A DNA stretch of 35,706 bases from a virus (IMGVR_UViG_2698536570_000003:1-35706); one strand, 5' to 3'. Shown: positions 4,271 to 24,952, counted from the stretch's first letter. Numbers and translations: made by a program. The notes: generated by a model from the letters alone, not told the origin.

Positions 4271-4297
4271 CCCGCTGATGAGCGGGTTTTGTGCTTT
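4271..4297 (+). terminator. tR'-like intrinsic terminator downstream of Q
   Basis: Hairpin CCCGCT-GATG-AGCGGG followed by TTTTGTGCTTT. Confidence 0.45.
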
Positions 4298-4582: not shown

Positions 4583-4795
4583 TCATGAAAGGTAAACATT
4601 GGCAGCTGAAGGGCCACGCAGACCATTTATCCGGCAAAATTCCACGCGTAATCCGGTGGTAATTTCTTCTGCATCGCGGAGATTGAGCGCTGAAACATGA
4701 AGCTGGACATCGATACGACCATCGGATGGGGTGATAAGACCCTTGCCGCTTTTGCCGTCAAAGGTTTTGACAATTCCTGTCATTTTACGGGACAA
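4583..4795 (-). CDS. cspF: cold-shock protein family (70 aa)
   Basis: [23 protein letters not shown]... cold-shock domain; Qin synteny. Confidence 0.85.
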
Positions 4796-5095
4796 AAAAA
4801 TTCCTTAATACTGATAACTTGGCGCACTATACACACGTTCCTGAAGAAAGCTATAGTTTTTTGATGGGGTTGAAGATGGCTGGATGTCTAAAATAAACAT
4901 TGCTTCATATGTTCAACTATGCGTTAATGATTGCGTCGGTTTGAAGAACAGACGATATACGAAGTAGTTTACTAAAGCAGTTCTCATTTCAGGTGTTATT
5001 CACTTATTCCTTCTTTGAGTCTCTCCAATTAAGTACGAAGTCGTTTCTGTTATGCAAACCATTTATGCCGAAAGGCTCAAGTTAAGGAATGTAGA

Positions 5096-5311
5096 ATGTC
5101 AAATAAAATGACTGGTTTAGTAAAATGGTTTAACGCTGATAAAGGTTTCGGCTTTATTTCTCCTGTTGATGGTAGTAAAGATGTGTTTGTGCATTTTTCT
5201 GCGATTCAGAATGATAATTATCGAACCTTATTTGAAGGTCAAAAGGTTACCTTCTCTATAGAGAGTGGTGCTAAAGGTCCTGCAGCAGCAAATGTCATCA
5301 TTACTGATTAA
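5096..5311 (+). CDS. cspB: cold-shock protein (71 aa)
   Basis: [23 protein letters not shown]...; RNP motifs KGFGFI and VFVHF; long 5' leader. Confidence 0.9.
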
Positions 5312-5583
5312 AATTCATCGCTCGTCTGTATACGATAACGAAGAAGGCTGATGCCTGAGTAGAGATACGGACAGAGTAGTGAATATTGGATCTCTTTAAT
5401 AAAAAGTAAGGAGGTCCAATACATGAAACAATGGCTAGCATATTTGGCAAAATCTTAATCAGGAAAAGTATGCTAACCATTGTGGTGAAGTGCAGGTTTG
5501 CTGCATGAATAGTTTTACAGCAGAAGCTAACTGCTGGCATGGCAAAACAAAGTGCGTAAGTGGATGACTCCCACAAAAAGCAC

Positions 5584-5606
5584 CACAATCTCAAACCCGC
5601 TCAGGC
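5584..5606 (+). terminator. intrinsic terminator-like hairpin
   Basis: AACCCGC-TCAG-GCGGGTT followed by TTTTTTATT. Confidence 0.45.
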
Positions 5607-5674
5607 GGGTTTTTTATTATCTGCTTTAAATATATTATTAAAATATAAAAAATACTTGTTACTAATAAAATCAA

Positions 5675-5896
5675 TCAGGCTACAGCTTTAAGATTTGTCT
5701 GGAATACTTTGTTGCAATGAGGGCAGATCAAAAGGGCACCTTTTTGTACTCTTGAAAAACTGTGTTCTGACTCTTGGGTGCAGTTTGGGCAGGAACATTT
5801 AACGAGATAATTACGGCGTGATTTTGAGTTTTTACGTTCTGACATAGGCTTTTCCTGTATAAATGGCCGTATACAGTACACTAAATATGAAAACAT
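5675..5896 (-). CDS. small zinc-ribbon-like protein (CSCPNC...CPHCNK); start uncertain
   Basis: Two Cys pairs spaced as a zinc ribbon; ORF in track. Confidence 0.35.
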   Translation of the reverse strand: MFSYLVYCIRPFIQEKPMSERKNSKSRRNYLVKCSCPNCTQESEHSFSRVQKGALLICPHCNKVFQTNLKAVA

Positions 5897-6064
5897 TTCT
5901 CGTATTATTATTTTATATATGACTTTCTTTCAAAATAATTACCCACATTTTTAATGTGTATGTTTTTTTAGCGCCGTTGAGAACAACGTGTGCTGTCAAA
6001 ACTACCCCGTAGACTCCGATCTTTTCAAACATATTGCACCATCCGTGTACATCGGGGTGAGGAT

Positions 6065-6280
6065 ATGAAATCAATGGATAAGTTAACAACAGGTGTTGCC
6101 TATGGCACATCGGCGGGTAATGCTGGTTTCTGGGCATTGCAGTTACTCGATAAAGTAACTCCGTCACAGTGGGCTGCAATCGGTGTGCTGGGTAGCCTGG
6201 TTTTTGGCCTGCTGACGTATCTGACAAATCTTTATTTCAAGATTAAAGAAGACAGGCGTAAGGCTGCGAGAGGAGAGTAA
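6065..6280 (+). CDS. essQ: class II holin (phage 21 S-like pinholin, 71 aa)
   Basis: [28 protein letters not shown]... with two TM segments and charged C-terminus; directly before the endolysin. Confidence 0.8.
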
Positions 6281-6284
6281 TCCA

Positions 6285-6592
6285 ATGACTCAAGACTATG
6301 AACTGGTTGTGAAAGGAGTCCGTAATTTTGAGAATAAAGTTACGGTAACTGTAGCCTTACAGGACAAAGAACGCTTTGACGGTGAAATTTTTGACCTGGA
6401 TGTCGCCATGGACCGTGTTGAAGGAGCTGCGCTGGAGTTTTATGAGGCAGCAGCCAGAAGGAGCGTCCGGCAAGTCTTCCTGGAAGTAGCAGAAAAATTG
6501 TCAGAAAAAGTTGAGTCTTATCTGCAGCATCAGTACTCCTTTAAGATTGAAAATCCTGCCAATAAGCACGAGCGTCCTCATCATAAATATCT

Positions 6593-6596
<4 letters not shown>
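6285..6596 (+). CDS. ydfR: YdfR-like protein of unknown function (103 aa)
   Basis: Position between holin and lysozyme as in Qin. Confidence 0.6.
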
Positions 6597-7620
<1,024 letters not shown>

Positions 7621-7982
7621 GGTAATATTAAATCGGAACATTTACATCGCGGAATGTAAAATTTAAATAAAAAGGACTCTTCCATGAGCCAAAATTCCTG
7701 AAATCTTAAGGGTAAGATAAAAGGTCTTAATCAGAATGACACGTTTTATTAATAAATAAAGCTATTCTTTCATTGCTGTGTTTTTCTTTACAAAAGTAAT
7801 CCTTGCTATGGGTGGTTAATCATGCGTTAATGGTGTTCTGGTTTGTTACAAATTTATCTGAAGCAGTCATTGTTATAATTTTATTATTTGTACCTCTTGA
7901 GATTTCCTTGTTGGTTTTTCTCTCTGATATTTTTTTTCGGACCATTCTGCCCAAGGGCTAATTTCTTCAAAAGGTAATAATT

Positions 7983-8195
7983 ATGTCTAACAAAATGACT
8001 GGTTTAGTGAAATGGTTTAACCCTGAAAAAGGTTTTGGTTTCATCACGCCGAAAGATGGCAGCAAAGATGTGTTTGTCCATTTCTCAGCAATTCAGAGCA
8101 ACGATTTCAAAACATTAACTGAGAATCAGGAAGTTGAATTTGGTATTGAGAACGGACCTAAAGGTCCTGCCGCTGTTCATGTAGTGGCGCTTTGA
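7983..8195 (+). CDS. cspI: cold-shock protein (70 aa)
   Basis: [23 protein letters not shown]... cold-shock domain. Confidence 0.9.
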
Positions 8196-8399
8196 GGTAG
8201 ACAATATTACAAACCATATTCACTTTAGATGCCCGTGTTGTCATGGTTCCCAGTATAGAACATCATCTTTTGATGTTTCTGACATGAATCCTTTCGGGGC
8301 AAAATGTATCTTTTGTAAATCAATGATGATTACATTTGATAATATTTCACAATACTTAAATGCCAGCCGTCTGTCGTTGGATTTGAAAAAGTGAAAATG

Positions 8400-8422
8400 A
8401 AGGCTCCTTCGGGAGCTTTTTT
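8400..8422 (+). terminator. intrinsic terminator-like hairpin
   Basis: GGCTCC-TTCG-GGAGC followed by TTTTTTGC. Confidence 0.5.
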
Positions 8423-8466
8423 GCTTGGTGTCTATTCGATGGATACTCACATACTACGGTAACATC

Positions 8467-8697
8467 ATGAAAAAAATCATAGTTTTTTTTAACTCTGAAC
8501 CAGCAGTGGTAGTGCCAGCGATGACTGGAGTTAACACCATCATGCGTGAATATCCAAATGGCGAAAAAACACACCTTACTGTAATGGCCGCAGGGTTTCC
8601 ATCTCTGACCGGAGATCATAAAGTCATTTATGTAGCCGCGGATCGACATGTTACTTCAGAAGAAATTCTGGAAGCAGCAATAAGGCTCTTGAGTTGA
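8467..8697 (+). CDS. hypothetical protein (76 aa from MKKIIVFF)
   Basis: ORF in track; start moved to internal ATG; no recognisable motif. Confidence 0.35.
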   Translation: MKKIIVFFNSEPAVVVPAMTGVNTIMREYPNGEKTHLTVMAAGFPSLTGDHKVIYVAADRHVTSEEILEAAIRLLS

Positions 8698-8868
8698 TTT
8701 GATGCTATTGCATTGATAATTCAGGAAAATTCTCTTTGTCTGTTTGTGTAAAATTTAGACTATCGTATGTTGATTATTGCGATGTTTCATCTTATCTTTT
8801 ACACGTTTGCACCATATAATCGACTTACTGTGTAACTGGAAAGTCATAACAGACTAAAAGAGGAAATG

Positions 8869-9042
8869 ATGAATATTGAAAACTTAAAAACAAAAGCAGA
8901 AGCAGATATTTCTGAATATATAACAAAAAAAATTATTGAACTTAAGAAAAAGACCGGGAAAGAAGTTACCAGTATTCAGTTTACCGCACGGGAAAAAATG
9001 ACGGGTCTTGAAAGCTATGATGTCAAGATTAATTTAATCTGA
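8869..9042 (+). CDS. gnsB: GnsB-like small protein (57 aa)
   Basis: ORF below track cutoff found by hand: MNIENLKTKAEADISEYITKKIIELKKKTGKEVTSIQFTAREKMTGLESYDVKINLI; Gns family. Confidence 0.75.
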   Translation: MNIENLKTKAEADISEYITKKIIELKKKTGKEVTSIQFTAREKMTGLESYDVKINLI

Positions 9043-9193
9043 TGTATTCAATAATAAAATTTATCCATAAACCTCGTTTTTACGGGGTTTTGTTATATTT
9101 GAATGGTTCCGAATATCTAAATCACAATTGTTGATGGTTTTTATTAAACCAATGCAGTCCGGCTCAGGAGTGAGAGAAGCCGGACGTTATGGT

Positions 9194-9604
9194 TTAGCGT
9201 GGTAAGATCTGTGTAGTTTTCTGGATGCTTTCAGTAAATAGTAATGATTTATCAAAGGTATAGTAATATCTTTTTTGTTCGTGGATATTTGTAACCCACC
9301 GAAAAACTCCTGCTTTAGCAAGGTTTCTTCTGTATTCCTGAAATGTGATCTCTCTGGATTTCAGCTTATTAGAGGTCGTTTCTATAAGATGCCTATCCTT
9401 TGAAAATTTGACAGACACAATGTTTTTTAGGCCCTTTAATAACACTGTATTATCATTTTTTAATACAATATGAACATTCTCTGTGGCTAAATAGTAAATG
9501 TAATGTGAGACATTGTGACGTTTTAGCTCAGAATAAAACCATTGATAGTTTAAATCGTTTCGAACTTTATCAAATATTTGTTTAAAAATGACTACCTGAT
9601 CCAT
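9194..9604 (-). CDS. ydfO: DUF1398-family protein YdfO-like
   Basis: Sequence and synteny recall; start taken at [11 protein letters not shown]. Confidence 0.65.
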
Positions 9605-9661
9605 AGATAAACCTTCCATGTGATATGAGGGGGCGTAGTCTGCACGATTATCTAAATTGCT

Positions 9662-9895
9662 TCAATCTGGTCTGACCTGTTTTCTGAGCAATTCAGTAAT
9701 GTCACTCTTTTCTTTGTTTGCTTCAGAAGAAACTCTTTTTTCTGAGCACAGTCTCCGGCGGCAGGCTTCAATGACCCAGGCTGAGAAATTCCCGGACCCT
9801 TTTTGCTCAAGAGCGATGTTAATTTGTTCAATCATTTGGTTAGGAAAGCGGATGTTGCGGGTTGTTGTTCTGCGGGTTCTGTTCTTCGTTGACAT
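9662..9895 (-). CDS. ynfO: small basic protein, YnfO-like (77 aa)
   Basis: Length and position match Qin ynfO; basic N-terminus. Confidence 0.5.
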   Translation of the reverse strand: MSTKNRTRRTTTRNIRFPNQMIEQINIALEQKGSGNFSAWVIEACRRRLCSEKRVSSEANKEKSDITELLRKQVRPD

Positions 9896-9960
9896 GAGGT
9901 TGCCCCGTATTCAGTGTCGCTGATTTGTATTGTCTGAAGTTGTTTTTACGTTAAGTTGAT

Positions 9961-10283
9961 GCAGATCAATTAATACGATACCTGCGTCATAATTGATTAT
10001 TTGACGTGGTTTGATGGCCTCCACGCACGTTGTGATATGTAGATGATAATCATTATCACTTTACGGGTCCTTTCCGGTGATCCGACAGGTTACGGGGCGG
10101 CGACCTCGCGGGTTTTCGCTATTTATGAAAATTTTCCGGTTTAAGGTGTTTCCGTTCTTCTTCGTCGTAACTTAATGTTTTTATTTAAAATACCCCCTGA
10201 AAAGAAAGGAAACGACAGGTGCTGAAAGCGAGCTTTTTGGCCTCTGTCGTTTCCTTTCTCTGTTTTTGTCCGTGGAATGAGCA
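9961..10283. other. lambda-type cos site: cosQ-side right-end sequence, cosN 12-nt cohesive end GGGCGGCGACCT at 10095-10106, cosB up to Nu1
   Basis: 9961-10093 matches the recalled last ~130 nt of the lambda genome; 10095 onward matches the recalled first nt of the lambda genome up to Nu1. Confidence 0.85.
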
Positions 10284-10803
10284 ATGGAAGTCAACAAAAA
10301 GCAGCTGGCTGACATTTTCGGTGCGAGTATCCGTACCATTCAGAACTGGCAGGAACAGGGAATGCCCGTTCTGCGAGGCGGTGGCAAGGGTAATGAGGTG
10401 CTTTATGACTCTGCCGCCGTTATAAGATGGTATGCCGAAAGGGATGCTGAAATTGAGAACGAAAAGCTGCGCCGGGAAGTTGAAGAACTGCGGCAGGCCA
10501 GCGAGACAGATCTCCAGCCAGGGACTATTGAGTACGAACGCCATCGACTTACGCGTGCGCAGGCCGACGCACAGGAGCTGAAAAATGCCAGAGACTCCGC
10601 TGAAGTGGTGGAAACCGCATTCTGTACTTTCGTGCTGTCGCGGATCGCAGGTGAAATTGCCAGTATTCTCGACGGGATCCCCCTGTCGGTGCAGCGGCGT
10701 TTTCCGGAACTGGAAAACCGACATGTTGATTTCCTGAAACGGGATATCATCAAAGCCATGAACAAAGCAGCCGCGCTGGATGAACTGATACCGGGGTTGC
10801 TGA

Positions 10804-10829
<26 letters not shown>
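10284..10829 (+). CDS. nu1: terminase small subunit Nu1 (181 aa)
   Basis: Near-identical to recalled lambda Nu1. Confidence 0.95.
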
Positions 10830-14510
<3,681 letters not shown>

Positions 14511-16227: not shown

Positions 16228-17160
16228 ATGTCGATGTACACAACCGCCCAGCTGCTGGCGGCAAATGAGCAGAAATTTAAGTTTGATCCGCTGTTTCTGC
16301 GTCTCTTTTTCCGTGAGAGCTATCCCTTCACTACGGAGAAAGTCTATCTCTCACAAATTCCGGGACTGGTAAACATGGCGCTGTACGTTTCGCCGATTGT
16401 TTCCGGTGAGGTTATCCGTTCCCGTGGCGGCTCCACCTCTGAATTTACGCCGGGATATGTCAAACCCAAGCATGAGGTGAATCCGCAGATGACCCTGCGT
16501 CGCCTGCCGGATGAAGATCCACAGAATCTGGCGGACCCGGCTTACCGCCGCCGTCGCATCATCATGCAGAACATGCGAGACGAAGAGCTGGCCATTGCTC
16601 AGGTCGAAGAGATGCAGGCAGTTTCTGCCGTGCTCAAGGGCAAATACACCATGACCGGTGAAGCCTTCGATCCGGTTGAGGTGGATATGGGCCGCAGTGA
16701 AGCGAATAACATCACACAGTCTGGCGTCACGGAGTGGAGCAAGCGTGACAAGTCCACGTATGACCCGACCGACGATATCGAAGCCTACGCGCTGAACGCC
16801 AGCGGCGTGGTGAATATCATCGTGTTTGACCCGAAAGGCTGGGCGCTGTTCCGTTCCTTCAAAGCCGTCAGGGAGAAGCTGGATACCCGTCGCGGCTCTC
16901 ATTCCGAACTGGAGACAGCGGTAAAAGACCTGGGCAAAGCGGTGTCTTATAAGGGAATGTATGGCGATGTGGCCATCGTCGTGTATTCCGGACAGTACGT
17001 GGAAAACGGCGTCAAAAAGAACTTCCTGCCGGACAACACGATGGTGCTGGGTAACACTCATGCACGCGGTCTGCGCACCTATGGCTGTATTCAGGATGCG
17101 GATGCATTGAGTGAGGGTATTAATGCGTCTCCCCGTTATCCGAAAAACTGGAAGACATGA
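16228..17160 (+). pseudogene. E: major capsid protein gpE, N-terminal 312 codons, interrupted; stop codon TGA supplied by the first bases of the insertion
   Basis: MSMYTTAQLLAANEQKFKFDPLF... matches lambda E up to ...PRYPKNWKT, then stop; the missing 29-codon C-terminus is at 24857-24952. Confidence 0.88.
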
Positions 17161-17202
17161 TCCACCGCGCGATAAATAAGCCGCAATCCGTGAGATAAAT
17201 GG
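17158..17202. repeat. left terminal region of insertion (TGATCC..., GATAAATA at 17171, CCGTGAGATAAATGG at 17188)
   Basis: Motifs mirror the right end in reverse complement. Confidence 0.6.
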
Positions 17203-17218
17203 ACACGGTGCGGCTTTT
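17180..17218 (+). terminator. hairpin plus T-run just inside left end of insertion
   Basis: GCCGCAATCCGTG...CACGGTGCGGC followed by TTTT; would stop read-through from E. Confidence 0.4.
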
Positions 17219-17245
17219 CAGATACTGCAAAGGAATTACAAATTA

Positions 17246-19723
17246 TCAGTCGTAAGCAACCCGGCGCTTACGGGCAAGAATAGCTTCCAGCGCTCTTTCA
17301 ATCTCAGGAATGGACAGCTTAAGCGCATTCGCTACATCCGGTGCTGGTGACTTGTTCTTGCCATCAATATAGATATGGTTAATGACGTTAATCCCTGCAC
17401 CTGCCGGTGAATGTGAATCCCGGCCTCTGGATAAGGTAAGGTCGCCGCGCATATAGCGCTCTAATACGGGTGGTACTTTCGGTACATCCGGCACCATCAT
17501 ATCAGCCAGCCGCGAGGAGGCTTTTAGCGCCAGCGATGCAGACTGACCGATACCAATCGCCGCCCCTTCTGCGATGTTTGAACCGAAGCCCATAAAGACC
17601 CGGCTTGGCGAGTGAATCCCCAGCTTTTCCTTGAACCACCCGCCGACGCTATCGCCCATCTCGGTAACGGTATTCTTGAGCGACTCCCACTTATTTTTGA
17701 TACCGTTCACCAGTCCGTCAATCAGGTGACCGCCAAACTCGGTAAACTGGCCGGGAAGGTCGATGTTAAACCACTTCATGACCCCCGCAAACGCCTTGTA
17801 GAACAGCCCCAGCGGCGACCAGTTCAGGATTAGCTTACTGACGCCGAGAACGCCGCCGTTAAAGGCCGTTTTGACTTCCTCCCATCGCTGTGAGAACCAT
17901 CGACTTATTGCCCCCCAGTTGCGGTATATCAGGTATGCGCCCCCGGCGATGACGGTTATCGCAATGCCTAAGGGATTCATCATCAGCGCCCGGCCAAACC
18001 AGAGAAATGCTTTTGCAACGACCATGACGCCCCTGAACAGCCCACCTGCCAGCGCTTTACCCAGCGTCCCGGCTCCCTTCGCTACGGTACTGAATCCAGT
18101 AGCCAGCCAGCGCAACCTGCCACCAACACCAAGTGCGGCTTTCAGCTTCACCCAATGAGTGTGTACCAGAACAGCGTTTTTCCACATCCCAACAAAAGGT
18201 GAAAAAAGCAGATTAAGGCCGAGCTTCAGACCGACAGTGGCAATTTTCAGCCCCAGCAGTGCGCCCACGGTTTTTGCCACACCCTGAACAAGCGTCGGAT
18301 GTTGCTCTATCCAGAGCTTCGTTGTCTGAATCATCGGGATTAATTGCCGGGTTGCTGACACAAATGTAGGGGACAACTGATCGCCGAGAGAGATAGATAA
18401 ATCACGGGTGTTTATCATCAGGGCTTTGGTTGCTTCCAGCGGCGATTTGAGCCTTTCAGCATAGGATGCCGCCAGCAGGTCATTATCAGCCGCTTTAAGT
18501 GCACCAGAGCGGATTGCCCTGTATTTATCCATGTTAGCAAGCATAGGGCGAACGAACGCCATTACCTGCATATCGGTGAACATCTCACCCAGCCCAAAGT
18601 TTTTAGCCAGACTTTGTAAGGCCTCGTCCCGCGCTTTGTTGTCCTGAATTTGCATTGCGGATTTAAAACCAGCCAGAGCTTTCGGACTCGTTGCATTAAG
18701 GTATCTTTGGGTTACATCCAGCATACCTTCAATGGGGGAAACTCCGGCTGCTTTATAATTCGCAAGAGACCCCATCAGGTCGATACCTAAATCGGCAAAT
18801 CGCTTCTGCGTATCAGGCGCAAAAATCTTGGTGAGGAAGTTCCTGAAATTGTTTGCAGTCTCATCCGGTGAACCTGAACCAATCATAGCGACCTGCAAAC
18901 TGGCCCCAATCTCCGCCACTGCATCCTTACCGTCTGCAATACCCTGCATCATCGGCGCAAGCGACTGAATCCATTTCACCTGGTCAGGGATTTCAAAAGA
19001 CCCCTGGTCACCTGCGTAGGCCATGATGTTCTGTACCGCGCCAAATTCTTTTGCGCTGCCTTTCAGCGAGTTTTGCCACACCGCCGCAACCTTTGCCCAT
19101 TCCGTTCCTGCGGTACGGGTTGCCGTGGCTGCACGGGCGATATTCGGCATGTAGTTGCCAATATCTGAAAGCCCGTCAATGTTATCGCTGATAAGTGAAC
19201 CAACGGCGTCCTGCATATCGCTCTGATACTGGTTGTATTTGAGCGACCACCCTTTGATTTGCTCTCCCAGAGTCTTACGGGTTTTATCGTCATATTTCGC
19301 TGTGATTGACATATCAATCATTTTATCTTCAAACGATGCCGACTGTTCTATAGCCGGGGACACAAGACTGTAAGCAGCCCTGACTTGTGCATACGCCTCT
19401 ACTCCCTGACCGTAGAGCGCCATGCGGTTAGATTTCAGGGCGTCAGAAGTGGCAGACGCTGCCGACAGGCGGGACTGCTGGCGGTTAAGCTGTTCCAGCG
19501 TTCTGCCGACCCGTTGCAGGTCATTGTTCAGGCGCGAGGCTACGCCCGAACCAACCTGACCGTAACGCTGCATGGCGCGTGACAGGCTGCTTTGCTGCTC
19601 CGTCAGTCGGCGTGAGGTGTCGCCGAGAGAATCCAGAGTACGCCGGGTACTGCTCATCGCGGAACGAAAACTGCTCCCGACAATGCCGCCAATCATCACG
19701 CCAACAGAAAAATTATTGCTCAT
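17246..19723 (-). CDS. tape-measure-like protein (825 aa)
   Basis: Long helical N-terminal part, Gly/Trp/Phe-rich hydrophobic middle, C-terminal GIHSPSRVF-type motif; no search run. Confidence 0.55.
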   Translation of the reverse strand: MSNNFSVGVMIGGIVGSSFRSAMSSTRRTLDSLGDTSRRLTEQQSSLSRAMQRYGQVGSGVASRLNNDLQRVGRTLEQLNRQQSRLSAASATSDALKSNRMALYGQGVEAYAQVRAAYSLVSPAIEQSASFEDKMIDMSITAKYDDKTRKTLGEQIKGWSLKYNQYQSDMQDAVGSLISDNIDGLSDIGNYMPNIARAATATRTAGTEWAKVAAVWQNSLKGSAKEFGAVQNIMAYAGDQGSFEIPDQVKWIQSLAPMMQGIADGKDAVAEIGASLQVAMIGSGSPDETANNFRNFLTKIFAPDTQKRFADLGIDLMGSLANYKAAGVSPIEGMLDVTQRYLNATSPKALAGFKSAMQIQDNKARDEALQSLAKNFGLGEMFTDMQVMAFVRPMLANMDKYRAIRSGALKAADNDLLAASYAERLKSPLEATKALMINTRDLSISLGDQLSPTFVSATRQLIPMIQTTKLWIEQHPTLVQGVAKTVGALLGLKIATVGLKLGLNLLFSPFVGMWKNAVLVHTHWVKLKAALGVGGRLRWLATGFSTVAKGAGTLGKALAGGLFRGVMVVAKAFLWFGRALMMNPLGIAITVIAGGAYLIYRNWGAISRWFSQRWEEVKTAFNGGVLGVSKLILNWSPLGLFYKAFAGVMKWFNIDLPGQFTEFGGHLIDGLVNGIKNKWESLKNTVTEMGDSVGGWFKEKLGIHSPSRVFMGFGSNIAEGAAIGIGQSASLALKASSRLADMMVPDVPKVPPVLERYMRGDLTLSRGRDSHSPAGAGINVINHIYIDGKNKSPAPDVANALKLSIPEIERALEAILARKRRVAYD

Positions 19724-19755
19724 GGTTCACTCCGGTAATGAGTGGTTCGGTGGCG

Positions 19756-20349
19756 TCATTCGGTCAGGGACAGGCCGCTGATTCCGGTAATCCCGGCAAT
19801 TTCCTCGCTGACAGCCATCAGTTCACTTTCAAGCCCGGTACGTTCGCTGACCAGCGCCGCAACGGTCTTACGGCGTTCTGCCAGTGACGGAAGTTTGTCA
19901 TTGCCCCACACCACGCTTTTATCCTTCTTAAGCGCTTCGGTCAGGCGGGTGGCGACCACATCCGGGAAGAAAAAGCAGAGCTTGCGCATAACCGCCATCC
20001 CGGTATCAGCCGGGGAGATGTTTCCACCCAACCCCACCAGACGGAACAGGCCGGAAATATCGCCGCTCTCATTCTCCAGATTGCCCCAGCGTTCGGCGTT
20101 CCCTTCACTGCCGGAACTGTTGCAGAGGACACGCTTGAATGACTGATATTCTTCCTGCCCGAATCGCTCAATATATTCAGGAATGAAAGAACAGTAATCA
20201 TTAAGCGATAAAGGCATATCCTGTAATGTGGTTATTTCGCCGTTAATTTCACTAATGCGGCGAGAGAGTTTTTCTTTCTGCTCATTCAGGGAGGCAAGAT
20301 TATTTTTAACGGCGTTCAGTGCTTCGATAAGGGAAATAACTGGTTTCAT
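19756..20349 (-). CDS. hypothetical protein with N-terminal coiled coil (197 aa); chaperone or scaffold candidate
   Basis: ORF in track, directly upstream of the tape-measure-like gene. Confidence 0.4.
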   Translation of the reverse strand: MKPVISLIEALNAVKNNLASLNEQKEKLSRRISEINGEITTLQDMPLSLNDYCSFIPEYIERFGQEEYQSFKRVLCNSSGSEGNAERWGNLENESGDISGLFRLVGLGGNISPADTGMAVMRKLCFFFPDVVATRLTEALKKDKSVVWGNDKLPSLAERRKTVAALVSERTGLESELMAVSEEIAGITGISGLSLTE

Positions 20350-20350
20350 T

Positions 20351-20965
20351 TTAATAACTCCAGATAAAAGGCGTGGTGAGTGTGAGTGCTTCGGAATAGG
20401 AGACGTTACAGGCTTCGCTTACATCCTTTATTAAAAGGTGCTGCGCTGCTCTCTGGCTGTCAGCTATGCCGTCGAACTCTGAGAAATAAACGTGTGATTC
20501 ATTGTGACCAAAACAGACCGGGTAAGCGCTTTCCATAAATTCCACCTGCTCCAGCCCTTTAACGGCTGGCGGCTGTGAGCCGAGAAAACCGATATGGCGT
20601 AGATACCAAGCTCCGGTGCCTGCCGGGTTGCTGGCCTCGCCGGGCTTATAGAATGACGCAGATACTTTCCTGTAACGCCCTGAGCGCACCAGCCCCAGCA
20701 GGGTATCATCCGGTTTTACCAGTGCGAAAAGCCTGCCGTTCTTGCTTATCAGTCCGGTGGTTTCGCCATAGGCCGGGCTGTTACTGGCCGGATGCCCCAG
20801 ACACAGCGGCGCACCGTAACCCGCGCTGCGATAGCCGTTATAGGCCGCTGCCATGTTGTCGATATCCTCGTCGGAAAAGCTGATTTCCTGTCCCGCCATC
20901 GCGGTATGCGTTCCCGCCCGGAATATCTCAATCGTTTTCCAGTTGCCCAAATTAAGATTTGTCAT
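20351..20965 (-). CDS. hypothetical protein (204 aa), tentatively Mu gpI-like protease-domain
   Basis: Motifs RSGRYRKVSASFY and LRHIGFLGSQPPAVKGL resemble my recollection of Mu-I family proteins; recall is uncertain. Confidence 0.35.
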   Translation of the reverse strand: MTNLNLGNWKTIEIFRAGTHTAMAGQEISFSDEDIDNMAAAYNGYRSAGYGAPLCLGHPASNSPAYGETTGLISKNGRLFALVKPDDTLLGLVRSGRYRKVSASFYKPGEASNPAGTGAWYLRHIGFLGSQPPAVKGLEQVEFMESAYPVCFGHNESHVYFSEFDGIADSQRAAQHLLIKDVSEACNVSYSEALTLTTPFIWSY

Positions 20966-21007
20966 TTACCTGTTCTCGGTTGTGATGTGTAAACAGTGCT
21001 TTGCTGC

Positions 21008-21382
21008 TTAGTGTCTGGCAGCGCTATCTTTCAGGCTGTTTCTGTATTCACGGCGTTTTTGGGCGATAATGTTGTAAATCCATTGCAGGGAATAGCCGTA
21101 TTTTTTCGCTATTTCAGCGATGGGAATACCTTCATTAAAGTCTGCAAAAACCAGATCATATTTCTCTTCATTCTGGTCTTTTGTTCCTTTTGGGAAGTAA
21201 AGGTTAAGCCCGCCGTATACATCTGACAGATACGCCATGATGTCTACAGCGATAGATTCAGACTGACGTTTATCGACACCGTACATGACAAGGCGGCAGG
21301 AAATGTGCGTAGCCATATCACTAAGCACTTCGGCAGATTGACGCATTTTTTGTTTGTTGGTCATGACTATCACCCGTTGCAA
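21008..21382 (-). CDS. Mor-family transcriptional activator-like protein (124 aa)
   Basis: C-terminal half (YGGLNLYFPKG...FADFNEGIPIAEIAKKYGYSLQWIYNIIAQKRR) aligns by eye with Mu Mor HTH region. Confidence 0.55.
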   Translation of the reverse strand: MQRVIVMTNKQKMRQSAEVLSDMATHISCRLVMYGVDKRQSESIAVDIMAYLSDVYGGLNLYFPKGTKDQNEEKYDLVFADFNEGIPIAEIAKKYGYSLQWIYNIIAQKRREYRNSLKDSAARH

Positions 21383-21603
21383 TATCAGTAATTCAGTCAG
21401 AAAAGGCTTTATAAAGCTTTACAGCGTGCGACTGGCGGTAAAGGCGAACCTTGACCGCAGCAAACCAGCCTGACGGCTTAGAAAGCGTTACAGCACCTTG
21501 TTAAAGTCAGTTAATAATATCGGGTGTGGGCGGGGATGTTTTTTAATGTACTTTAGATATGAAGAAGCCCCTCAGAGGAGGGGCTTCGCGGGATTACGCC
21601 AGA

Positions 21604-21894
21604 TTATTGAGGCCGTCTGTCTTTCCTCAATCCATCAAGTAGCGCCATTGCATCAGTAACCAGTATGCCAGCAGCATCCGTAACCATAGAAACATCAGAG
21701 GATGCACATGATTTATCCGTACCTAATGTAGACGCAAAATCAAGTAGCTTACGAACTGCATCAAGTCGGTAGGTGGCAGAGTCGTAAATTAACTCCTGAT
21801 TAGCATCAGTCTTTAAAAACATAATATCATCAGAGGCACCTTGTGAAAATGACGGCATCGCACGGAAAGTATTTTGAGTTTCAGCCTGTTTCAT
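21604..21894 (-). CDS. hypothetical protein (96 aa)
   Basis: ORF in operon context, overlaps neighbour by 4 nt. Confidence 0.35.
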   Translation of the reverse strand: MKQAETQNTFRAMPSFSQGASDDIMFLKTDANQELIYDSATYRLDAVRKLLDFASTLGTDKSCASSDVSMVTDAAGILVTDAMALLDGLRKDRRPQ

Positions 21895-22652
21895 TGTGCA
21901 GCCCTCCGGCTAATAGCGAATTTATTATAAACTTCATAACTGGCAGCATTCAGTCCGGGGTTGTATTTATCAGCCAGAGCACAGGCAATCATATGTTCAA
22001 TAAATTTTGTTATTGCGTTAAGTTCGGTTTCGTCTGAATAACGCAATGCCACTTTGAGTAACTCGCGGCAATATTGCTTTTTATTCTCTTCGATTTGGCC
22101 TGATTGTTTTATTCCTGCCTTTTTATCTAACTCGTCCTCAACAGGCAAAGATGAGATATCCTCTTTATTGGTTAGCGTTCTTTCGCAAATAATATCTTCA
22201 CCAGATTGAATTACGCGCTGCAACTCTCTGGCGCTCATGCGAAGAATATCATCAAGCGTGTGGTCGTTATATGCCCCACCACTGGCAAGGAGATCCAGTG
22301 TCACTTCATCCAGCCGGGCAAGCAGATTTAACTTCGTTTTGCCGATATCTGTTTTGGCAATTGCGGCTCGTGGTGTGTCACCGCCGAACACATGAGCGAT
22401 TCGCATCGCTTTACGTGCATCGGGCAAGTTTATGCGCCATCTGTGAAGAAAGTTCGTAAACTCACCATGTTGCAGTTCCTCTTTACAGGCAAATATTTTC
22501 TTTCCCAAAGAAACCAAGCCTTCGGCCTCCGATGTCGTTTTAGCGTGAGAACTGTGAATCACGCCACTGACCACCGCAGATAAAACACTTTCTTGGTTTG
22601 TTCCAAATGAATCGTTAGACTTATCATTAGCCATGACTGTTATCCTACGCAT
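21891..22652 (-). CDS. hypothetical protein (253 aa, start uncertain), first gene of leftward operon
   Basis: ORF in track; translationally coupled to the 96-aa ORF. Confidence 0.4.
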   Translation of the reverse strand: MRRITVMANDKSNDSFGTNQESVLSAVVSGVIHSSHAKTTSEAEGLVSLGKKIFACKEELQHGEFTNFLHRWRINLPDARKAMRIAHVFGGDTPRAAIAKTDIGKTKLNLLARLDEVTLDLLASGGAYNDHTLDDILRMSARELQRVIQSGEDIICERTLTNKEDISSLPVEDELDKKAGIKQSGQIEENKKQYCRELLKVALRYSDETELNAITKFIEHMIACALADKYNPGLNAASYEVYNKFAISRRAAQ

Positions 22653-22772
22653 AACGGTTTACTGGTTAGGCCATAGCAAGTGCTCGCAACATTTGTTATG
22701 GCCGTTTCTCTAGACCTTTCCCTGTGTTAAGGTATAGACCTAATAAGCAAACACTAAGCTATAGGTCTATAC

Positions 22773-22964
22773 ATGTCAACTATCTTGCGAGATAAAAGCC
22801 CTAAAGGGGCAGGTAAAGCCCCGATGTTCAATGTCAGGATTTCACCAGAACTGAAAGAACAGTTTGAATCACAAGCAAAAAAAGAAGGTGTTAGCTTAGG
22901 GAATTGGCTCAAAGAGCTTGGGAGAGCAGAGCTTAAGCGCAACGGAATTGACCCGAAGGCTTAA
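22773..22964 (+). CDS. Arc/Mnt-like ribbon-helix-helix DNA-binding protein (63 aa)
   Basis: PMFNVRISPELKEQFESQAKKEGVSLGNWLKE fits the RHH pattern of P22 Arc; divergent from the leftward operon. Confidence 0.5.
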   Translation: MSTILRDKSPKGAGKAPMFNVRISPELKEQFESQAKKEGVSLGNWLKELGRAELKRNGIDPKA

Positions 22965-23000
22965 ATTTAGTTACTAAAAAACAATAGCTTAAGGTATTTT

Positions 23001-23086
23001 TGATAAATATTTATCACTTGTATTCGACATCATAGTGATAAATATTTATCATTCACAGCGCATCGGCACATGATAAAATGTTATCA
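23001..23086. promoter_or_regulatory. three 16-bp palindromic operator-like sites, 35 bp centre to centre
   Basis: TGATAAATATTTATCA at 23001-23016 and 23036-23051 (identical, perfect palindromes); TGATAAAATGTTATCA at 23071-23086. Confidence 0.6.
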
Positions 23087-23101
23087 CTTTGAGGCTAGTT
23101 T

Positions 23102-23446
23102 ATGCGTATACATGTTACTCTTAATGGCAAAAAAACAACCATATCGATAGATGACTTGCTCTTCGACTATCTTGGTGCATGGTTGGTTGAACAAAGACCC
23201 AAACTGCACTCAAAACCTAAAGAGCAGTATGACCAAGCTAAGTCTCAGATTCGTAAATATGTGCAAGATAACGCAGAAAAACTCCCATCTAAGAACCTTA
23301 GCCAGCACATACAAAATGCCATTTTAGAAATAATTATGCCGAAAGAATTAAATGAAATTCTAGAGAAAAGAGGGCCAAGATATGAGAAGAAAAAGTTTGA
23401 TGTGACCACAATTTTCCCTGATTGGGAAAATTATCTGAGAAAGTAA
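23102..23446 (+). CDS. hypothetical protein (114 aa), possible DNA-binding/regulatory
   Basis: ORF in track with GAGG RBS, directly after the operator array. Confidence 0.45.
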   Translation: MRIHVTLNGKKTTISIDDLLFDYLGAWLVEQRPKLHSKPKEQYDQAKSQIRKYVQDNAEKLPSKNLSQHIQNAILEIIMPKELNEILEKRGPRYEKKKFDVTTIFPDWENYLRK

Positions 23447-23465
23447 TTAAATCAATGGATTGTAT

Positions 23466-23607
23466 ACCGCTCAGCGCTGAGCGGTTCTGTGGCTCTAGAT
23501 CTGCCAACGTTGGCAGATTTGCCAATACCGCATTTGATTGATGGTATCGAATCGCAAATGTCCCAGCGCTGGGAATCATCCCCAAAGGCGCAGACATCTG
23601 CGCCTTT
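23466..23607. repeat. cluster of four distinct palindromes/hairpins
   Basis: ACCGCTCAGCGCTGAGCGGT (23466-23485), ATCTGCCAACGTTGGCAGAT (23499-23518), TCCCAGCGCTGGGA (23561-23574), AAAGGCGCAGA-CA-TCTGCGCCTTT (23584-23607). Confidence 0.6.
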
Positions 23608-23734
23608 GAGAAGCACGGAACTAAAATCCGTTTCACTGTATGACTGTATGGTATGAGGCTTTCAGATGCTTACTGAGGCTTAAATAAGCTAATGAAGTTT
23701 GCATCATCTGTTCCAAGTTAGTACACTTATCCCT

Positions 23735-23766
23735 GTTAGTGGATGCGTGACGCGCTCTGGTTGAGG
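23735..23766. repeat. left arm of 32-bp perfect inverted repeat
   Basis: GTTAGTGGATGCGTGACGCGCTCTGGTTGAGG; exact reverse complement at 23925-23956. Confidence 0.8.
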
Positions 23767-23820
23767 CTCATTACCTTGAACAGAGATTCATCACCTTAAG
23801 CACCCAAAGAAAAAAGCCTG

Positions 23821-23870
23821 NNNNNNNNNNNNNNNNNNNNNNNNNNNNNNNNNNNNNNNNNNNNNNNNNN
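23821..23870. other. run of 50 N (assembly gap or masked sequence of unknown true length)
   Basis: Seen directly. Confidence 0.99.
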
Positions 23871-23924
23871 GCATGTGAAACGTGTTCAAGCCCTGGCTGG
23901 ATTACGGGTGGTGCCGCTCCAGTG

Positions 23925-23956
23925 CCTCAACCAGAGCGCGTCACGCATCCACTAAC
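23925..23956. repeat. right arm of 32-bp perfect inverted repeat
   Basis: CCTCAACCAGAGCGCGTCACGCATCCACTAAC. Confidence 0.8.
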
Positions 23957-24028
23957 AATGCAACACCGTTAACCAGGCAGTGGAAGGGCTTTAATGGTGA
24001 TGCCGCGCTCCTGTAGTGGAGCAAACGG

Positions 24029-24112
24029 ATGAAGGGATTTCTTCAAATCGCTGTCATCGCTCTTAAGGCAATTGTCGCCTTTATTGAGCTGATTCTGGCC
24101 TGCTTACCGTAA
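24029..24112 (+). CDS. candidate 27-aa hydrophobic peptide (MKGFLQIAVIALKAIVAFIELILACLP), type I toxin-like
   Basis: ATG with GGAG 8 nt upstream; single predicted TM helix; followed 20 nt later by a strong terminator. Confidence 0.3.
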   Translation: MKGFLQIAVIALKAIVAFIELILACLP

Positions 24113-24133
24113 GCAACCGGGAAACGTAAGTAA

Positions 24134-24166
24134 GGCCACCGGCTCACCCCCGGTGGCCTTTAACAT
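24134..24166 (+). terminator. intrinsic terminator
   Basis: GGCCACCGG-CTCACCC-CCGGTGGCC followed by TTTAACATTTT. Confidence 0.55.
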
Positions 24167-24365
24167 TTTAAGTCTGCCTCGCCGCTCTACCGGCCATTCA
24201 TTTTTGAAGCTGGCTGAGTGTTAAGGCTAAATTTAAGGTGGCACTGACGGCTTAAATTCCTGCGATATCCTGGCATGTCGTTATGATTAAAGCGCATTAG
24301 AAACAAATTTCATCGTTCTGATTAAACATGTTTACCTGACTATTCAAAGTAAGGTAAATCTCAAT

Positions 24366-24710
24366 ATGGCACGACCTCAGACGGTTAATCAGTTACCCGA
24401 CTCTATCAAGAAGAAACTGAATAAAAAGCTGACGGAAAGTTCATTCAGCGGCTACGTTCAGCTTACTGAGTGGTTAAACTCGTTGGGATACCCGGTTTCA
24501 AAATCATCAGTGCATCGCTATGCTGAACGTCGCCGCCTGTCACTTATAGCAGGGAGCGATACTCCCGGCGCAACAGCTAACATTGTGGATACGAAACTTC
24601 GCTGTCTGGAGCTTGCCTCGCTCTCTTTAAAAACGGACGAGAAGTTGTCAGCAGATGAAGTAAAAAAATATGCTGAAAATTTGATGGGGTGGCTTTACGA
24701 CCAGAAATAA
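24366..24710 (+). CDS. HTH-containing small protein (114 aa) near right end of insertion; regulator or terminase-small-subunit-like
   Basis: Segment YVQLTEWLNSLGYPVSKSSVHRYAERRR looks like a helix-turn-helix; ORF in track. Confidence 0.45.
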   Translation: MARPQTVNQLPDSIKKKLNKKLTESSFSGYVQLTEWLNSLGYPVSKSSVHRYAERRRLSLIAGSDTPGATANIVDTKLRCLELASLSLKTDEKLSADEVKKYAENLMGWLYDQK

Positions 24711-24809
24711 TTGACTGCGCGGGAGGCGTGCCCTCCCGTTACGTATATGGAAACTGTTTTACAAATTCCCATCCAACCTTTTCCAACATCTTCCCCCATA
24801 GTCCCACAA

Positions 24810-24850
24810 TTATCTCACGGATAACCCTGTATTTATCTCATGTCTAATCA
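24810..24850. repeat. right terminal region of insertion (reverse complement carries CCGTGAGATAA at +30 and CATGAGATAAATA at +8)
   Basis: Mirrors the left end. Confidence 0.6.
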
Positions 24851-24856
24851 AAGACA

Positions 24857-24952
24857 TCCGGCGATCCGGCGCGAGAGTTCACCATGATTCAGTCAGCACC
24901 GCTGATGCTGCTGGCTGATCCTGATGAGTTCGTGTCCGTTCAACTGGCGTAA
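24857..24952 (+). pseudogene. E: detached C-terminal 31 codons of major capsid gene E (SGDPAREFTMIQSAPLMLLADPDEFVSVQLA)
   Basis: Matches the lambda E C-terminus; in frame with the N-terminal fragment if 17158-24856 is removed. Confidence 0.85.

What the first reader, a model, noticed from the sequence alone, without database searches (positions are those of the whole stretch)
16228..24952. Capsid gene reading frame would be restored by precise excision
Removing 17158-24856 (one copy of the repeat plus the element) rejoins E in frame as ...PKNWKT|SGDPAREFTMIQSAPLMLLADPDEFVSVQLA, a full 341-aa gpE. While the element is present the prophage makes a 312-aa truncated capsid protein and should be unable to form heads. 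Every other morphogenesis gene and the cos site look intact. This fits either recent insertional inactivation or an excision-dependent switch of the kind seen with elements that split host genes.
Basis: inference. Interest (0 to 1): 0.6.

Follow-up and report, generated by a model that had tools for sequence, protein, structure and literature searches.

The report
Transposase-less mini-Mu-like element splits capsid gene
The lambda-type capsid gene of an already dead E. coli prophage was recently cut in two by a 7.75-kb jumping element that has no transposase of its own and carries the end sequences of a Mu-like (BcepMu-type) phage living elsewhere in the same genome, so it is not a genetic switch but probably a new kind of phage parasite.

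Summary
gpE is split at 17157/17158. Removing 17158-24856 restores a 341-aa protein that aligns end to end with lambda gpE, and the rebuilt junction is 100% identical to uninterrupted alleles in many E. coli genomes. Two corrections: the truncated product is 310 aa, and the repeat is a 6-bp target-site duplication, AAGACA.

The switch idea fails. The insert has no recombinase, and relatives sit at 12 or more unrelated sites, each with its own 6-bp duplication. The host is a Qin-type cryptic prophage of strain AW1.7. It was already dead: IS5 removed its early region and IS2 splits J just beyond the window.

The insert is 7,693 bp in the window and 7,754 bp in the public record, because a 50-N mask hides 111 bp. 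Its ends are TG...CA. Each end matches the corresponding end of BcepMu-like transposable prophages, and an apparently intact 34.3-kb one sits in adiA of AW1.7.

It encodes a tape-measure protein, a short head-protease domain, a family-specific 197-aa protein, Mor, DUF3102, an Arc-like repressor and a gp27-like N-domain. Most are under purifying selection (dN/dS 0.06-0.16).

Best reading: a helper-dependent transposable element, probably a satellite of transposable phages. I found no description of such an element.

The parts
10095..10106 (+). cos cohesive-end sequence GGGCGGCGACCT of the host lambda/Qin-type prophage
   Evidence: Exact match. It lies upstream of nohA/Nu1.
16228..17157 (+). gpE (major capsid protein) N-terminal fragment, 310 codons, ended by a TGA at 17158-17160 supplied by the insert
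   Evidence: PF03864 at E 3.6e-61. Translation. RefSeq marks it as a partial pseudogene.
17152..17157 (.). Left copy of the 6-bp target-site duplication AAGACA
17158..24850 (.). Transposase-less BcepMu-like mini-element: 7,693 bp in the window and 7,754 bp in NZ_CP073624, with TG...CA termini
   Evidence: Element boundaries are shared with copies at other sites. The N mask is shown.
17158..17240 (+). Left terminal region, of the type found at the tail-side end of the helper. GATAAAT motifs lie at 17171-17177 and 17194-17200.
   Evidence: 85% identical over 60 nt to the tail-side end of the AW1.7 BcepMu-like prophage, against 60% to its other end. Conserved in 11 element copies.
17246..19723 (-). 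Tape-measure protein, 825 aa
   Evidence: PF10145 and phrog_28/5690. 70% aa identity to the PhiKM/JJ1887 tape measure and 45% to that of the resident helper. dN/dS 0.08-0.11.
19756..20349 (-). hyp197: a family-specific, all-helical 197-aa protein that always follows the short protease gene
   Evidence: No Pfam, NCBIfam or PADLOC hit. No homolog in the helpers. dN/dS 0.09-0.13. 142 clusters in a library-wide profile search. Homologs lie next to short protease genes in other mini-elements. AF2 model has pLDDT 75.
20351..20965 (-). Short head-maturation-protease domain (204 aa), equivalent to only the N-terminal ~140 aa of the 365-aa helper protease/scaffold
   Evidence: phrog_976 at E 1.8e-45, profile positions 31-173 of 415. 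41-46% identity to the helper protein N-terminus. dN/dS 0.06-0.13.
21008..21382 (-). Mor-family late transcription activator
   Evidence: PF08765 at E 1.7e-21 and phrog_532. 28-29% identity to helper Mor.
21604..21894 (-). hyp96, an unknown small protein in the variable regulatory module
21891..22652 (-). DUF3102 protein. Its homolog lies next to the transposase gene in helper prophages.
   Evidence: PF11300 and phrog_1748. 31-34% identity to helper DUF3102.
22773..22964 (+). Arc/HicB-like ribbon-helix-helix regulator, 63 aa
   Evidence: PF05534 and phrog_228 Arc-like repressor.
23001..23086 (.). Three operator-like palindromes, TGATAAATATTTATCA, spaced 35 bp apart
   Evidence: Present only in copies that carry the same RHH/hyp114 module.
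23102..23446 (+). hyp114, an unknown protein
   Evidence: No family hit.
23734..23957 (.). Unit bounded by a 34-nt perfect inverted repeat (arms 23734-23767 and 23924-23957). It encloses a terminator and a promoter, part of which is hidden by the mask.
23821..23870 (.). Run of 50 N in the window that replaces 111 bp of NZ_CP073624
24366..24710 (+). gp27-like protein (114 aa). Only its first 55 aa resemble the Mu gp27/DUF3486 small-terminase-like protein.
   Evidence: PF11985 at E 3.6e-14, residues 7-55. phrog_426. 45% identity to helper DUF3486 over 55 aa.
24756..24850 (-). Right terminal region, of the type found at the early (Mor-side) end of the helper
   Evidence: 80% identical over 60 nt to the early end of the AW1.7 helper, against 62% to its other end.
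24851..24856 (.). Right copy of the 6-bp target-site duplication AAGACA
24857..24952 (+). gpE C-terminal fragment: 31 codons plus the stop

Best explanation
The capsid gene was broken by ordinary, untargeted transposition of a small non-autonomous element derived from BcepMu-like (Mu-type) transposable phages.

Shown:
- The element has the TG...CA termini and the end-specific terminal sequences of these phages.
- It makes the same 6-bp target duplication as they do.
- It encodes neither the DDE transposase nor the MuB-like ATPase.
- An apparently intact BcepMu-like prophage that has both lies elsewhere in the same chromosome.
- The Qin-type prophage that received this copy cannot make phage with or without E.

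Inferred:
- When such a helper enters lytic growth, its transposase acts in trans on the element's ends and copies it to random sites by replicative transposition. The copy in gpE is one such event.
- The element is more than a deletion remnant. Its conserved core is Mor, a short head-protease domain, hyp197 and a tape-measure protein, joined by a gp27-like N-domain. This core is kept by purifying selection and spreads between enterobacterial genera. This fits a satellite that turns on with the helper's late phase, interferes with or remodels helper head and tail assembly, and leaves the cell in helper particles.
- In a new cell it would need helper transposase to integrate.
For: Ends and duplications: TG...CA ends and 6-bp duplications are seen at the window copy (AAGACA) and at GCCGAA, ACTCAT, GTAATT, TAAGGA, GGTGCA, CCGTGG, ACAGCC, ATATGT, AATCGC, TTTTAC and CATGGC. 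Full prophages show the same pattern: GAAGAA in JJ1887 and GTAGCT in AW1.7.

End-for-end similarity to the resident helper: 85% and 80%, against 60-62% in the cross comparisons.

No transposase: none appears in any search, and there is no large unassigned ORF.

Helper in the same genome: AW1.7 carries a 34,303-bp BcepMu-like prophage in adiA, with the DDE transposase and ExeA/MuB-like genes annotated as intact.

Not a simple deletion derivative: Mor, DUF3102 and the gp27-like gene are inverted relative to the ends. Proteins are only 28-70% identical to their helper counterparts.

Purifying selection: dN/dS is 0.06-0.16 at dS 0.17-0.66.

Recent movement: a 99.97% identical copy lies at a different site in another genome. 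A 7,799-bp IMG/VR contig ends exactly at both termini. A metagenome contig has mismatched flanks.

Spread across genera: Escherichia, Erwinia, Intestinirhabdus, Tenebrionibacter, Citrobacter, Enterobacter, Salmonella and Yersinia.

A wider module: the Mor / short protease / hyp197-like set recurs in other 7-10 kb Mu-like mini-elements, some of which have their own transposase.

Dead host prophage.
Against: Nothing here shows mobilisation, packaging or transfer experimentally.

Three of five independent E. coli lineages that carry the element show no helper at megablast sensitivity. Co-occurrence is therefore not demonstrated statistically.

No deposited phage record contains the element.

The roles of hyp197, the tape-measure protein and the gp27-like N-domain are inferred from homology and gene context only. 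The hyp197 model gave no informative fold match.

A 7.75-kb genome in a roughly 35-kb headful particle would carry mostly host DNA unless capsid size is changed. That has not been tested.
Confidence: 0.8

Rival explanations
1. Excision-dependent switch: the element splits gpE and excises precisely on induction to restore capsid production, like the elements that split comK, sigK or spsM.
For: Removing the element and one repeat copy restores a perfect 341-aa gpE. The other late genes in the window are open.
Against: The element has no recombinase or excisionase. The repeat is a 6-bp transposition scar, and relatives sit at 12 or more unrelated targets. The prophage lacks int, immunity and replication genes, and its J gene is IS2-split. 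From general knowledge, Mu-type elements excise precisely only very rarely.
Confidence: 0.02
2. Decayed remnant in place: a full-length BcepMu-like prophage inserted into gpE and later lost about 27 kb by internal deletions. The element would then be junk, not a lineage.
For: Both ends and several genes (tape measure, protease, Mor, DUF3102, gp27) have homologs in full-length prophages.
Against: The same 7.6-7.8 kb architecture occurs at many sites and in many genera, each with its own duplication. A 99.97% identical copy lies at another locus. The genes are under strong purifying selection and have no stops. Gene orientations cannot be produced by deletions alone. hyp197 has no counterpart in the helpers.
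Confidence: 0.03
3. Interference or defence island: the element is kept mainly because its truncated protease, gp27-like N-domain and tape-measure protein poison assembly of BcepMu-like phages and protect the host. Horizontal spread would be secondary.
For: Truncated copies of helper morphogenesis proteins are classic dominant-negative candidates. The element is found without a detectable helper in several lineages.
Against: It retains both functional-looking transposition ends under conservation, and its history is one of repeated transposition. Neither is needed for a fixed defence locus. There are no PADLOC matches. This reading is compatible with satellite biology rather than exclusive of it.
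Confidence: 0.1
4. Autonomous transposon: one of the unknown proteins (DUF3102, hyp197, hyp114 or hyp96) is an unrecognised transposase, so no helper is needed.
For: Several lineages lack a detectable helper. DUF3102 lies next to the transposase gene in helpers.
Against: None of these proteins matches any transposase or nuclease family. Variants lacking DUF3102, hyp114 or the gp27-like gene still have proper ends and duplications. The ends copy those of phages whose transposase is a known DDE enzyme.
Confidence: 0.05

Closest known systems
BcepMu-like transposable phages (Bcepmuvirus; E. coli phage PhiKM, and prophages of ST131 strains such as JJ1887)
   Same: TG...CA termini, 6-bp target duplication, end-specific terminal sequences, and homologs of the tape-measure protein, head protease, Mor, DUF3102 and gp27.
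   Different: The element is 7.75 kb rather than 34-37 kb. It has no transposase, no MuB-like ATPase, no capsid, portal, terminase, sheath, tube, baseplate or lysis genes. Gene orientations are rearranged. hyp197 and the regulatory module are absent from the phages.
Engineered mini-Mu / mini-D3112 elements
   Same: Phage ends without the full phage. They are transposed in trans by helper transposase and can be packaged by helper headful packaging (PMC8705779 introduction; own knowledge).
   Different: Those are laboratory constructs. This is a natural lineage with nine genes, most under purifying selection, spread across genera.
Phage satellites P4, PICI/SaPI, cfPICI and PLE
   Same: A small element that lacks most virion genes yet carries a few morphogenesis-related genes (protease or scaffold-like, small-terminase-like), its own repressor-type regulator and an activator of late genes. 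It co-resides with a complete phage of the matching type.
   Different: It has no integrase or att site, and no primase or replication origin module. Integration and replication would be borrowed from the helper's transposition machinery. It carries a tape-measure gene. Dependence on helper particles is not demonstrated.
MITEs and other non-autonomous transposons
   Same: They lack a transposase, and their ends mimic those of an autonomous partner that mobilises them (PMC11389934).
   Different: MITEs are about 300 nt and non-coding. This element is 7.75 kb with conserved phage-type genes.
Gene-splitting elements that act as switches (phi10403S in comK, skin in sigK, SPbeta in spsM)
   Same: A mobile element interrupts an ORF that precise removal would regenerate.
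   Different: Those use a site-specific recombinase and a fixed att site inside a gene of a living host pathway. Here there is no recombinase, targets are random, and the interrupted gene belongs to a dead prophage.

Membership tests
Mu-type / BcepMu-type transposable element | 5'-TG...CA-3' termini | tested here: met
   The window element reads TGATCC...AATCA. The same termini occur in 10 other copies and 2 full prophages.
Mu-type / BcepMu-type transposable element | Fixed-length target-site duplication at unrelated targets | tested here: met
   6 bp at every insertion with both flanks available: 12 element sites and 2 prophage sites.
Mu-type / BcepMu-type transposable element | Terminal transposase-binding regions like those of autonomous relatives, distinct at the two ends | tested here: met
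   The L end is 85% identical to the helper tail-side end, and the R end 80% to the helper early end. Cross comparisons give 60-62%. Actual binding was not tested.
Mu-type / BcepMu-type transposable element | Encodes a DDE transposase and a MuB-like ATPase | tested here: not met
   No such gene in the Pfam, PHROGs or NCBIfam scans of all nine ORFs. Helpers have both. The element is therefore non-autonomous.
Transposable phage (complete virus) | Full head, tail, packaging and lysis gene set in a genome of about 35-40 kb | tested here: not met
   Only a tape-measure protein, a protease N-domain and a gp27-like N-domain are present, in 7.75 kb.
Phage satellite | Lacks most virion genes but carries genes that target helper morphogenesis or packaging | tested here: met
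   Protease N-domain, gp27-like N-domain, tape-measure protein and a Mor-type activator. The function of these genes is inferred.
Phage satellite | Packaged and transferred in helper-encoded particles | not testable with these tools
   Indirect evidence only: spread between genera at over 90% protein identity, and a 7,799-bp IMG/VR contig that ends exactly at the termini.
Phage satellite | Co-occurrence with a matching helper | tested here: inconclusive
   A helper is present in AW1.7 and in SK1144-type genomes. None was detected by megablast in the VREC0864, CX/MS115-1 and KCJ3K291 lineages. The baseline is 640 of 5426 genomes.
Known satellite families (P4-like, PICI, cfPICI, PLE) | Own integrase with a site-specific att, and own replication module | tested here: not met
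   No integrase, primase or replication gene. Insertion sites are random.
Excision-dependent gene switch (active lysogeny type) | Site-specific recombinase or excisionase carried by the element | tested here: not met
Excision-dependent gene switch (active lysogeny type) | Recurrent insertion at the same att site within the same gene | tested here: not met
   Only the two AW1.7 assemblies have it in gpE. All other copies lie at different loci.
Excision-dependent gene switch (active lysogeny type) | The restored gene would function in a viable pathway | tested here: not met
   The Qin-type prophage lacks its early region (IS5 deletion), and J is split by IS2.
MITE | Short, non-coding, with ends of an autonomous partner | tested here: not met
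   The ends match a partner, but the element is 7.75 kb and its genes are under selection.

The most novel reading that the evidence does not exclude
This is the first recognised family of satellites of transposable phages. These elements have given up integrase and replication genes altogether. They borrow a Mu-type helper's transposase both to replicate and to integrate. They keep a conserved Mor / short protease / hyp197 module, often with a tape-measure gene, to redirect helper virion assembly. Sister mini-elements in Salmonella and in metagenomes still carry their own transposase, which suggests a graded series from mini-phage to pure hitcher.
Probability: 0.45. Interest if true: 0.8.

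Novelty: new variant of a known kind. Interest (0 to 1): 0.6.

Why it matters
The finding as first stated is a capsid gene of a dead prophage knocked out by a mobile element. That is ordinary and has no regulatory meaning.

The insert is the interesting part. All well-described phage satellites integrate with their own integrase and replicate with their own or the helper's replisome functions. A satellite that depends on a helper's transposition machinery would be a new way to parasitise a phage. It would link two fields, non-autonomous transposons and phage satellites. It would also give a natural counterpart to the mini-Mu tools used for decades.

Such an element would be packaged with flanking host DNA, as Mu-type phages are. 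It could therefore be an unnoticed route of generalised transduction in Enterobacterales.

The conserved short-protease/hyp197 pair is a concrete, testable candidate for a capsid-remodelling or assembly-interference mechanism.

AW1.7 carries both the element and an apparently intact helper, so it is a ready experimental system.

Tried and rejected
- Rfam scan of the full element on the public record: only sub-threshold chance hits.
- PADLOC and NCBIfam scans of the unknown proteins: nothing meaningful.
- PDB sequence searches for DUF3102 and the protease domain: nothing.
- AF2 model of hyp197 (pLDDT 75, all-helical) searched against the PDB with Foldseek: only generic coiled-coil matches, best E 0.2.
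- HMM of hyp197 against six-frame ORFs of two helper prophages: no homolog. A local alignment of hyp197 to the scaffold-like C-terminal half of the helper protease found nothing. The idea that hyp197 is simply the detached scaffold half is therefore unsupported.
- The palindromes TGATAAATATTTATCA were considered as internal transposase or enhancer sites because they share GATAAAT with the ends. This was rejected because they occur only with one regulatory-module type.
- The 34-nt inverted repeat was considered as a Gin/Hin-type invertible switch. It does not resemble gix/hix by eye (own knowledge), has the same orientation in all copies, and has no counterpart in the helpers.
- The phage database holds no record of the element beyond tape-measure similarity.
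- Literature searches for a satellite of transposable phages, for natural mini-Mu elements and for the RefSeq accessions of the element's proteins found nothing relevant. The large transposable-phage catalogue paper (PMC10284936) is not held.
- The target duplication of the Salmonella mini-element could not be resolved cleanly.

Full report
**1. What is in the sequence**

The ORF from 16228 is a lambda-type major capsid protein (PF03864, E 3.6e-61). It stops after 310 codons, at a TGA created by the first bases of an insert. The last 31 codons of the gene resume at 24857. Joining 16228-17157 to 24857-24952 gives a 341-aa protein. It aligns residue 1 to residue 341 with lambda gpE (PDB 7vi9, E 6.5e-222).

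A rebuilt empty site, 400 bp from each side, is 100% identical over 800 bp to uninterrupted 'major capsid protein | FI' loci in at least 15 complete E. coli genomes. The insertion is therefore clean and recent.
- The truncated product is 310 aa, not 312.
- The direct repeat is 6 bp, AAGACA (17152-17157 and 24851-24856).
- Window 23821-23870 is a 50-N mask that hides 111 bp of the public record.

**2. Where the window comes from, and the state of the host prophage**

The window is 100% identical to E. coli AW1.7 (NZ_CP073624). The annotated record shows a Qin-type cryptic prophage next to ynfE.
- Just before the window start, an IS5 abuts truncated ynfE and flxA. No integrase, immunity or replication genes remain.
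- About 260 bp beyond the window end, J is split by an IS2.
- An IS1 follows the tail-fibre region.

Inside the window, cos (10095-10106) and the late genes are open. Even so, the prophage as a whole cannot replicate, excise or build an adsorbing tail. Restoring E would change nothing.

**3. The insert is a transposable element, not a site-specific one**

Related copies at 92-93% nucleotide identity lie inside glvC in strain VREC0864 and between dacD and sbmC in the CX strains and MS 115-1. A variant lies between ybhC and ybhJ in KCJ3K291.

In every case the element starts TGAT... and ends ...ATCA and is flanked by its own 6-bp duplication: GCCGAA, ACTCAT, GTAATT. More copies were recovered from metagenomes, IMG/VR and species-representative genomes. 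The genomes include Intestinirhabdus alba, Tenebrionibacter intestinalis and Erwinia tracheiphila (two copies), plus a MAG. These add TAAGGA, GGTGCA, CCGTGG, ACAGCC, ATATGT, AATCGC, TTTTAC and CATGGC.

One genome (IMG 2713896776) holds a copy 99.97% identical to the AW1.7 copy at a different site. A 7,799-bp IMG/VR contig begins and ends exactly at the two termini. A metagenome contig has flanks from two different insertion sites. These are marks of recent movement.

No ORF of the element matches an integrase, recombinase or transposase.

**4. Whose ends are they**

The 825-aa tape-measure protein is closest to that of Escherichia phage PhiKM (Bcepmuvirus, 70.6% aa identity). It is more distant from BcepMu and phiE255 (32-34%).

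The right end of the element matches one end of PhiKM. PhiKM-type prophages, recognised by their DDE transposase and ExeA/MuB-like ATPase genes, occur in 640 of 5426 complete E. coli genomes. The JJ1887 prophage is 37,045 bp, has TG...CA ends and is flanked by the 6-bp duplication GAAGAA.

AW1.7 itself carries a 34,303-bp prophage of this type. It is inserted in adiA (NZ_CP073624 4413388-4447690), has the duplication GTAGCT, and all core genes are annotated as intact.

Over the first 60 nt, identities between the element's ends and the AW1.7 prophage's ends are as follows:

| Element end | Prophage tail-side end | Prophage early (Mor-side) end |
|---|---|---|
| Left | 85% | 60% |
| Right | 62% | 80% |

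Both repeated GATAAAT-containing motifs are conserved in all 11 element copies. The element therefore presents the helper's two different ends in the correct arrangement but lacks the enzymes that act on them.

**5. Not a deletion remnant**

Compared with the helpers, Mor, DUF3102 and the gp27-like gene are inverted relative to the ends. Protein identities to helper counterparts are only 28-70%. hyp197, hyp96, the RHH regulator and hyp114 have no helper counterpart.

Between diverged copies (dS 0.17-0.66), dN/dS is 0.06-0.16 for the tape-measure protein, hyp197, the short protease, Mor and the gp27-like protein, with no internal stops.

The regulatory module (hyp96, DUF3102, RHH, hyp114) is mosaic between copies, like phage immunity regions. 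The triple palindrome TGATAAATATTTATCA travels with one module type, so it is most likely that module's operator.

The most conserved genes across genera are the short protease (89-98%) and hyp197 (82-96%).

**6. A wider class**

Homologs of the short protease fall into full-length forms (about 290-360 aa, as in phages) and many short forms (180-221 aa) on contigs of 7-10 kb. Their contexts show other mini Mu-like elements:
- One has a 969-aa tape-measure protein, Mor, short protease, a 200-aa protein, a tail-completion protein and a Mu-repressor-like HTH, with no transposase.
- One has a CI-type repressor, a 712-aa protein, a MuB-like ATPase, GemA, Mor, short protease, a 174-aa protein, tail chaperones and a tape-measure protein.
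- A 7,828-bp block is 100% identical at two different sites in Salmonella enterica. It carries a repressor, Mu-type transposase, ATPase, GemA, Mor, Gam, short protease and a 201-aa protein.

The roughly 200-aa gene after the short protease is a hyp197 homolog in each case: 39% identity at E 1e-40, 25% at E 6e-12, and HMM E 6e-4.

A profile search of 1.84 billion representatives finds 142 clusters of this unannotated family, nearly all 175-240 aa and matched end to end. Sampled contexts again show Mor, a 192-aa protein and a hyp197-like gene, or a position directly after a capsid gene. The Mor / short protease / hyp197 module is thus a hallmark of small Mu-like elements and is associated with head genes.

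**7. Mechanism, with its status**

Shown:
- Transposition-type junctions.
- Helper-type ends.
- Absence of a transposase.
- Presence of a complete helper in the same genome.
- Selection on the element's genes.
- Repeated insertion at new sites and presence in several genera.

Inferred:
- Helper transposase and ATPase replicate the element in trans during helper lytic growth.
- The element's Mor-family activator drives its protease-hyp197-tape-measure operon in step with the helper's late phase.
- The short protease, which keeps the conserved GHP and SASFY motifs, together with hyp197 alters or blocks head assembly.
- The gp27-like N-domain engages the packaging site.
- The element leaves in helper particles with flanking host DNA and needs helper transposase in the next cell.

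The role of a satellite-encoded tape-measure protein is unclear. Its first 725 residues resemble the PhiKM type and its last 100 resemble the AW1.7-helper type.

**8.

Recent insertional inactivation: yes.

Switch: no. There is no recombinase, targets are random, and the prophage is dead. From general knowledge, precise excision of Mu-type elements across a 5-6-bp duplication is extremely rare.

**9. Novelty**

Full-text searches found no description of satellites of transposable phages, no natural mini-Mu lineages and no mention of these proteins. A 2024 review of helper-dependent elements lists P4, PICI, cfPICI and PLE as satellites and MITEs as transposon hitchers, with nothing in between (PMC11389934). 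The search covers only the held library, and one relevant catalogue paper was not available.

I rate the element a new variant of known kinds, at the junction of phage satellites and non-autonomous transposons. The original 'switch' finding itself is ordinary.

Noticed in passing
window 23821-23870: A run of 50 N replaces 111 bp of the public AW1.7 record (L008 25722-25832). The hidden stretch holds a bidirectional-looking terminator (AAAAAAGCCTGACCTCACCAGTCGGGCTTTTTTT) and a near-consensus promoter (TTGAAT-16-TATAAT) that points toward the gp27-like gene.
   Followed up: yes
window 23734-23767 and 23924-23957: A 34-nt perfect inverted repeat brackets the terminator and promoter. It is conserved, with constant spacing, in all element variants that have the gp27-like right-hand module. 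A T/A variant at arm position 25 is usually changed in both arms. It is absent from helper prophages and matches no Rfam family. Its function is unknown.
   Followed up: partly
outside the window: NZ_CP073624 4413388-4447690 (L020 2889-37191): AW1.7 carries an apparently intact 34.3-kb BcepMu-like transposable prophage that disrupts adiA (arginine decarboxylase), with the 6-bp duplication GTAGCT. It is the likely helper. It should also abolish the arginine-dependent acid resistance gene adiA in this strain.
   Followed up: yes
outside the window: L008 962-1930 and 37865-39093: An IS5 bounds a deletion that removed the early half of the Qin-type prophage and part of ynfE. An IS2 splits the tail-tip gene J about 260 bp past the window end. 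An IS1 lies beyond the tail-fibre genes.
   Followed up: yes
L037 and L038, positions 3586-11413 (Salmonella enterica): A 7,828-bp mini Mu-like element is 100% identical at two different chromosomal sites. It carries its own Mu-type transposase, ATPase, GemA, Mor and Gam, plus the short-protease/hyp197-like pair, but no other virion genes. In L037 the left end of a separate Mu-like prophage lies about 3 kb away. Its target duplication could not be resolved.
   Followed up: partly
L031-L036 (metagenome contigs): Two further types of 7-10 kb Mu-like mini-elements share the Mor / short protease / hyp197-like core. They have different tape-measure families (TMP_2, TMP_3), and carry a transposase in one type but not in the other.
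   Followed up: partly
L023 (IMG/VR UViG 3300029165_000015): A 7,799-bp contig classed as viral begins and ends exactly at the element's two termini, with no flanking DNA. This is expected if its flanks were heterogeneous in that sample.
   Followed up: partly
window 17246-19723: The element's tape-measure protein looks chimeric. Residues 1-725 are 70% identical to the PhiKM/JJ1887 type. The last 100 residues align only with the AW1.7-helper/KP12 type.
   Followed up: partly
NZ_CM192147.1 3509995-3515917 (hit H139): In strain Ec-U4 the transposase-ATPase region of a BcepMu-like prophage is interrupted by ISEcp1 carrying blaCTX-M-15.
   Followed up: no
L003 20001-24400 (strain SK1144 and about 24 similar genomes): A degraded relative of the element lies next to a tRNA-Ser gene between clpA and infA. 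It lacks the tape-measure gene and is truncated on the right by an IS5. These genomes also carry a PhiKM-type prophage.
   Followed up: partly
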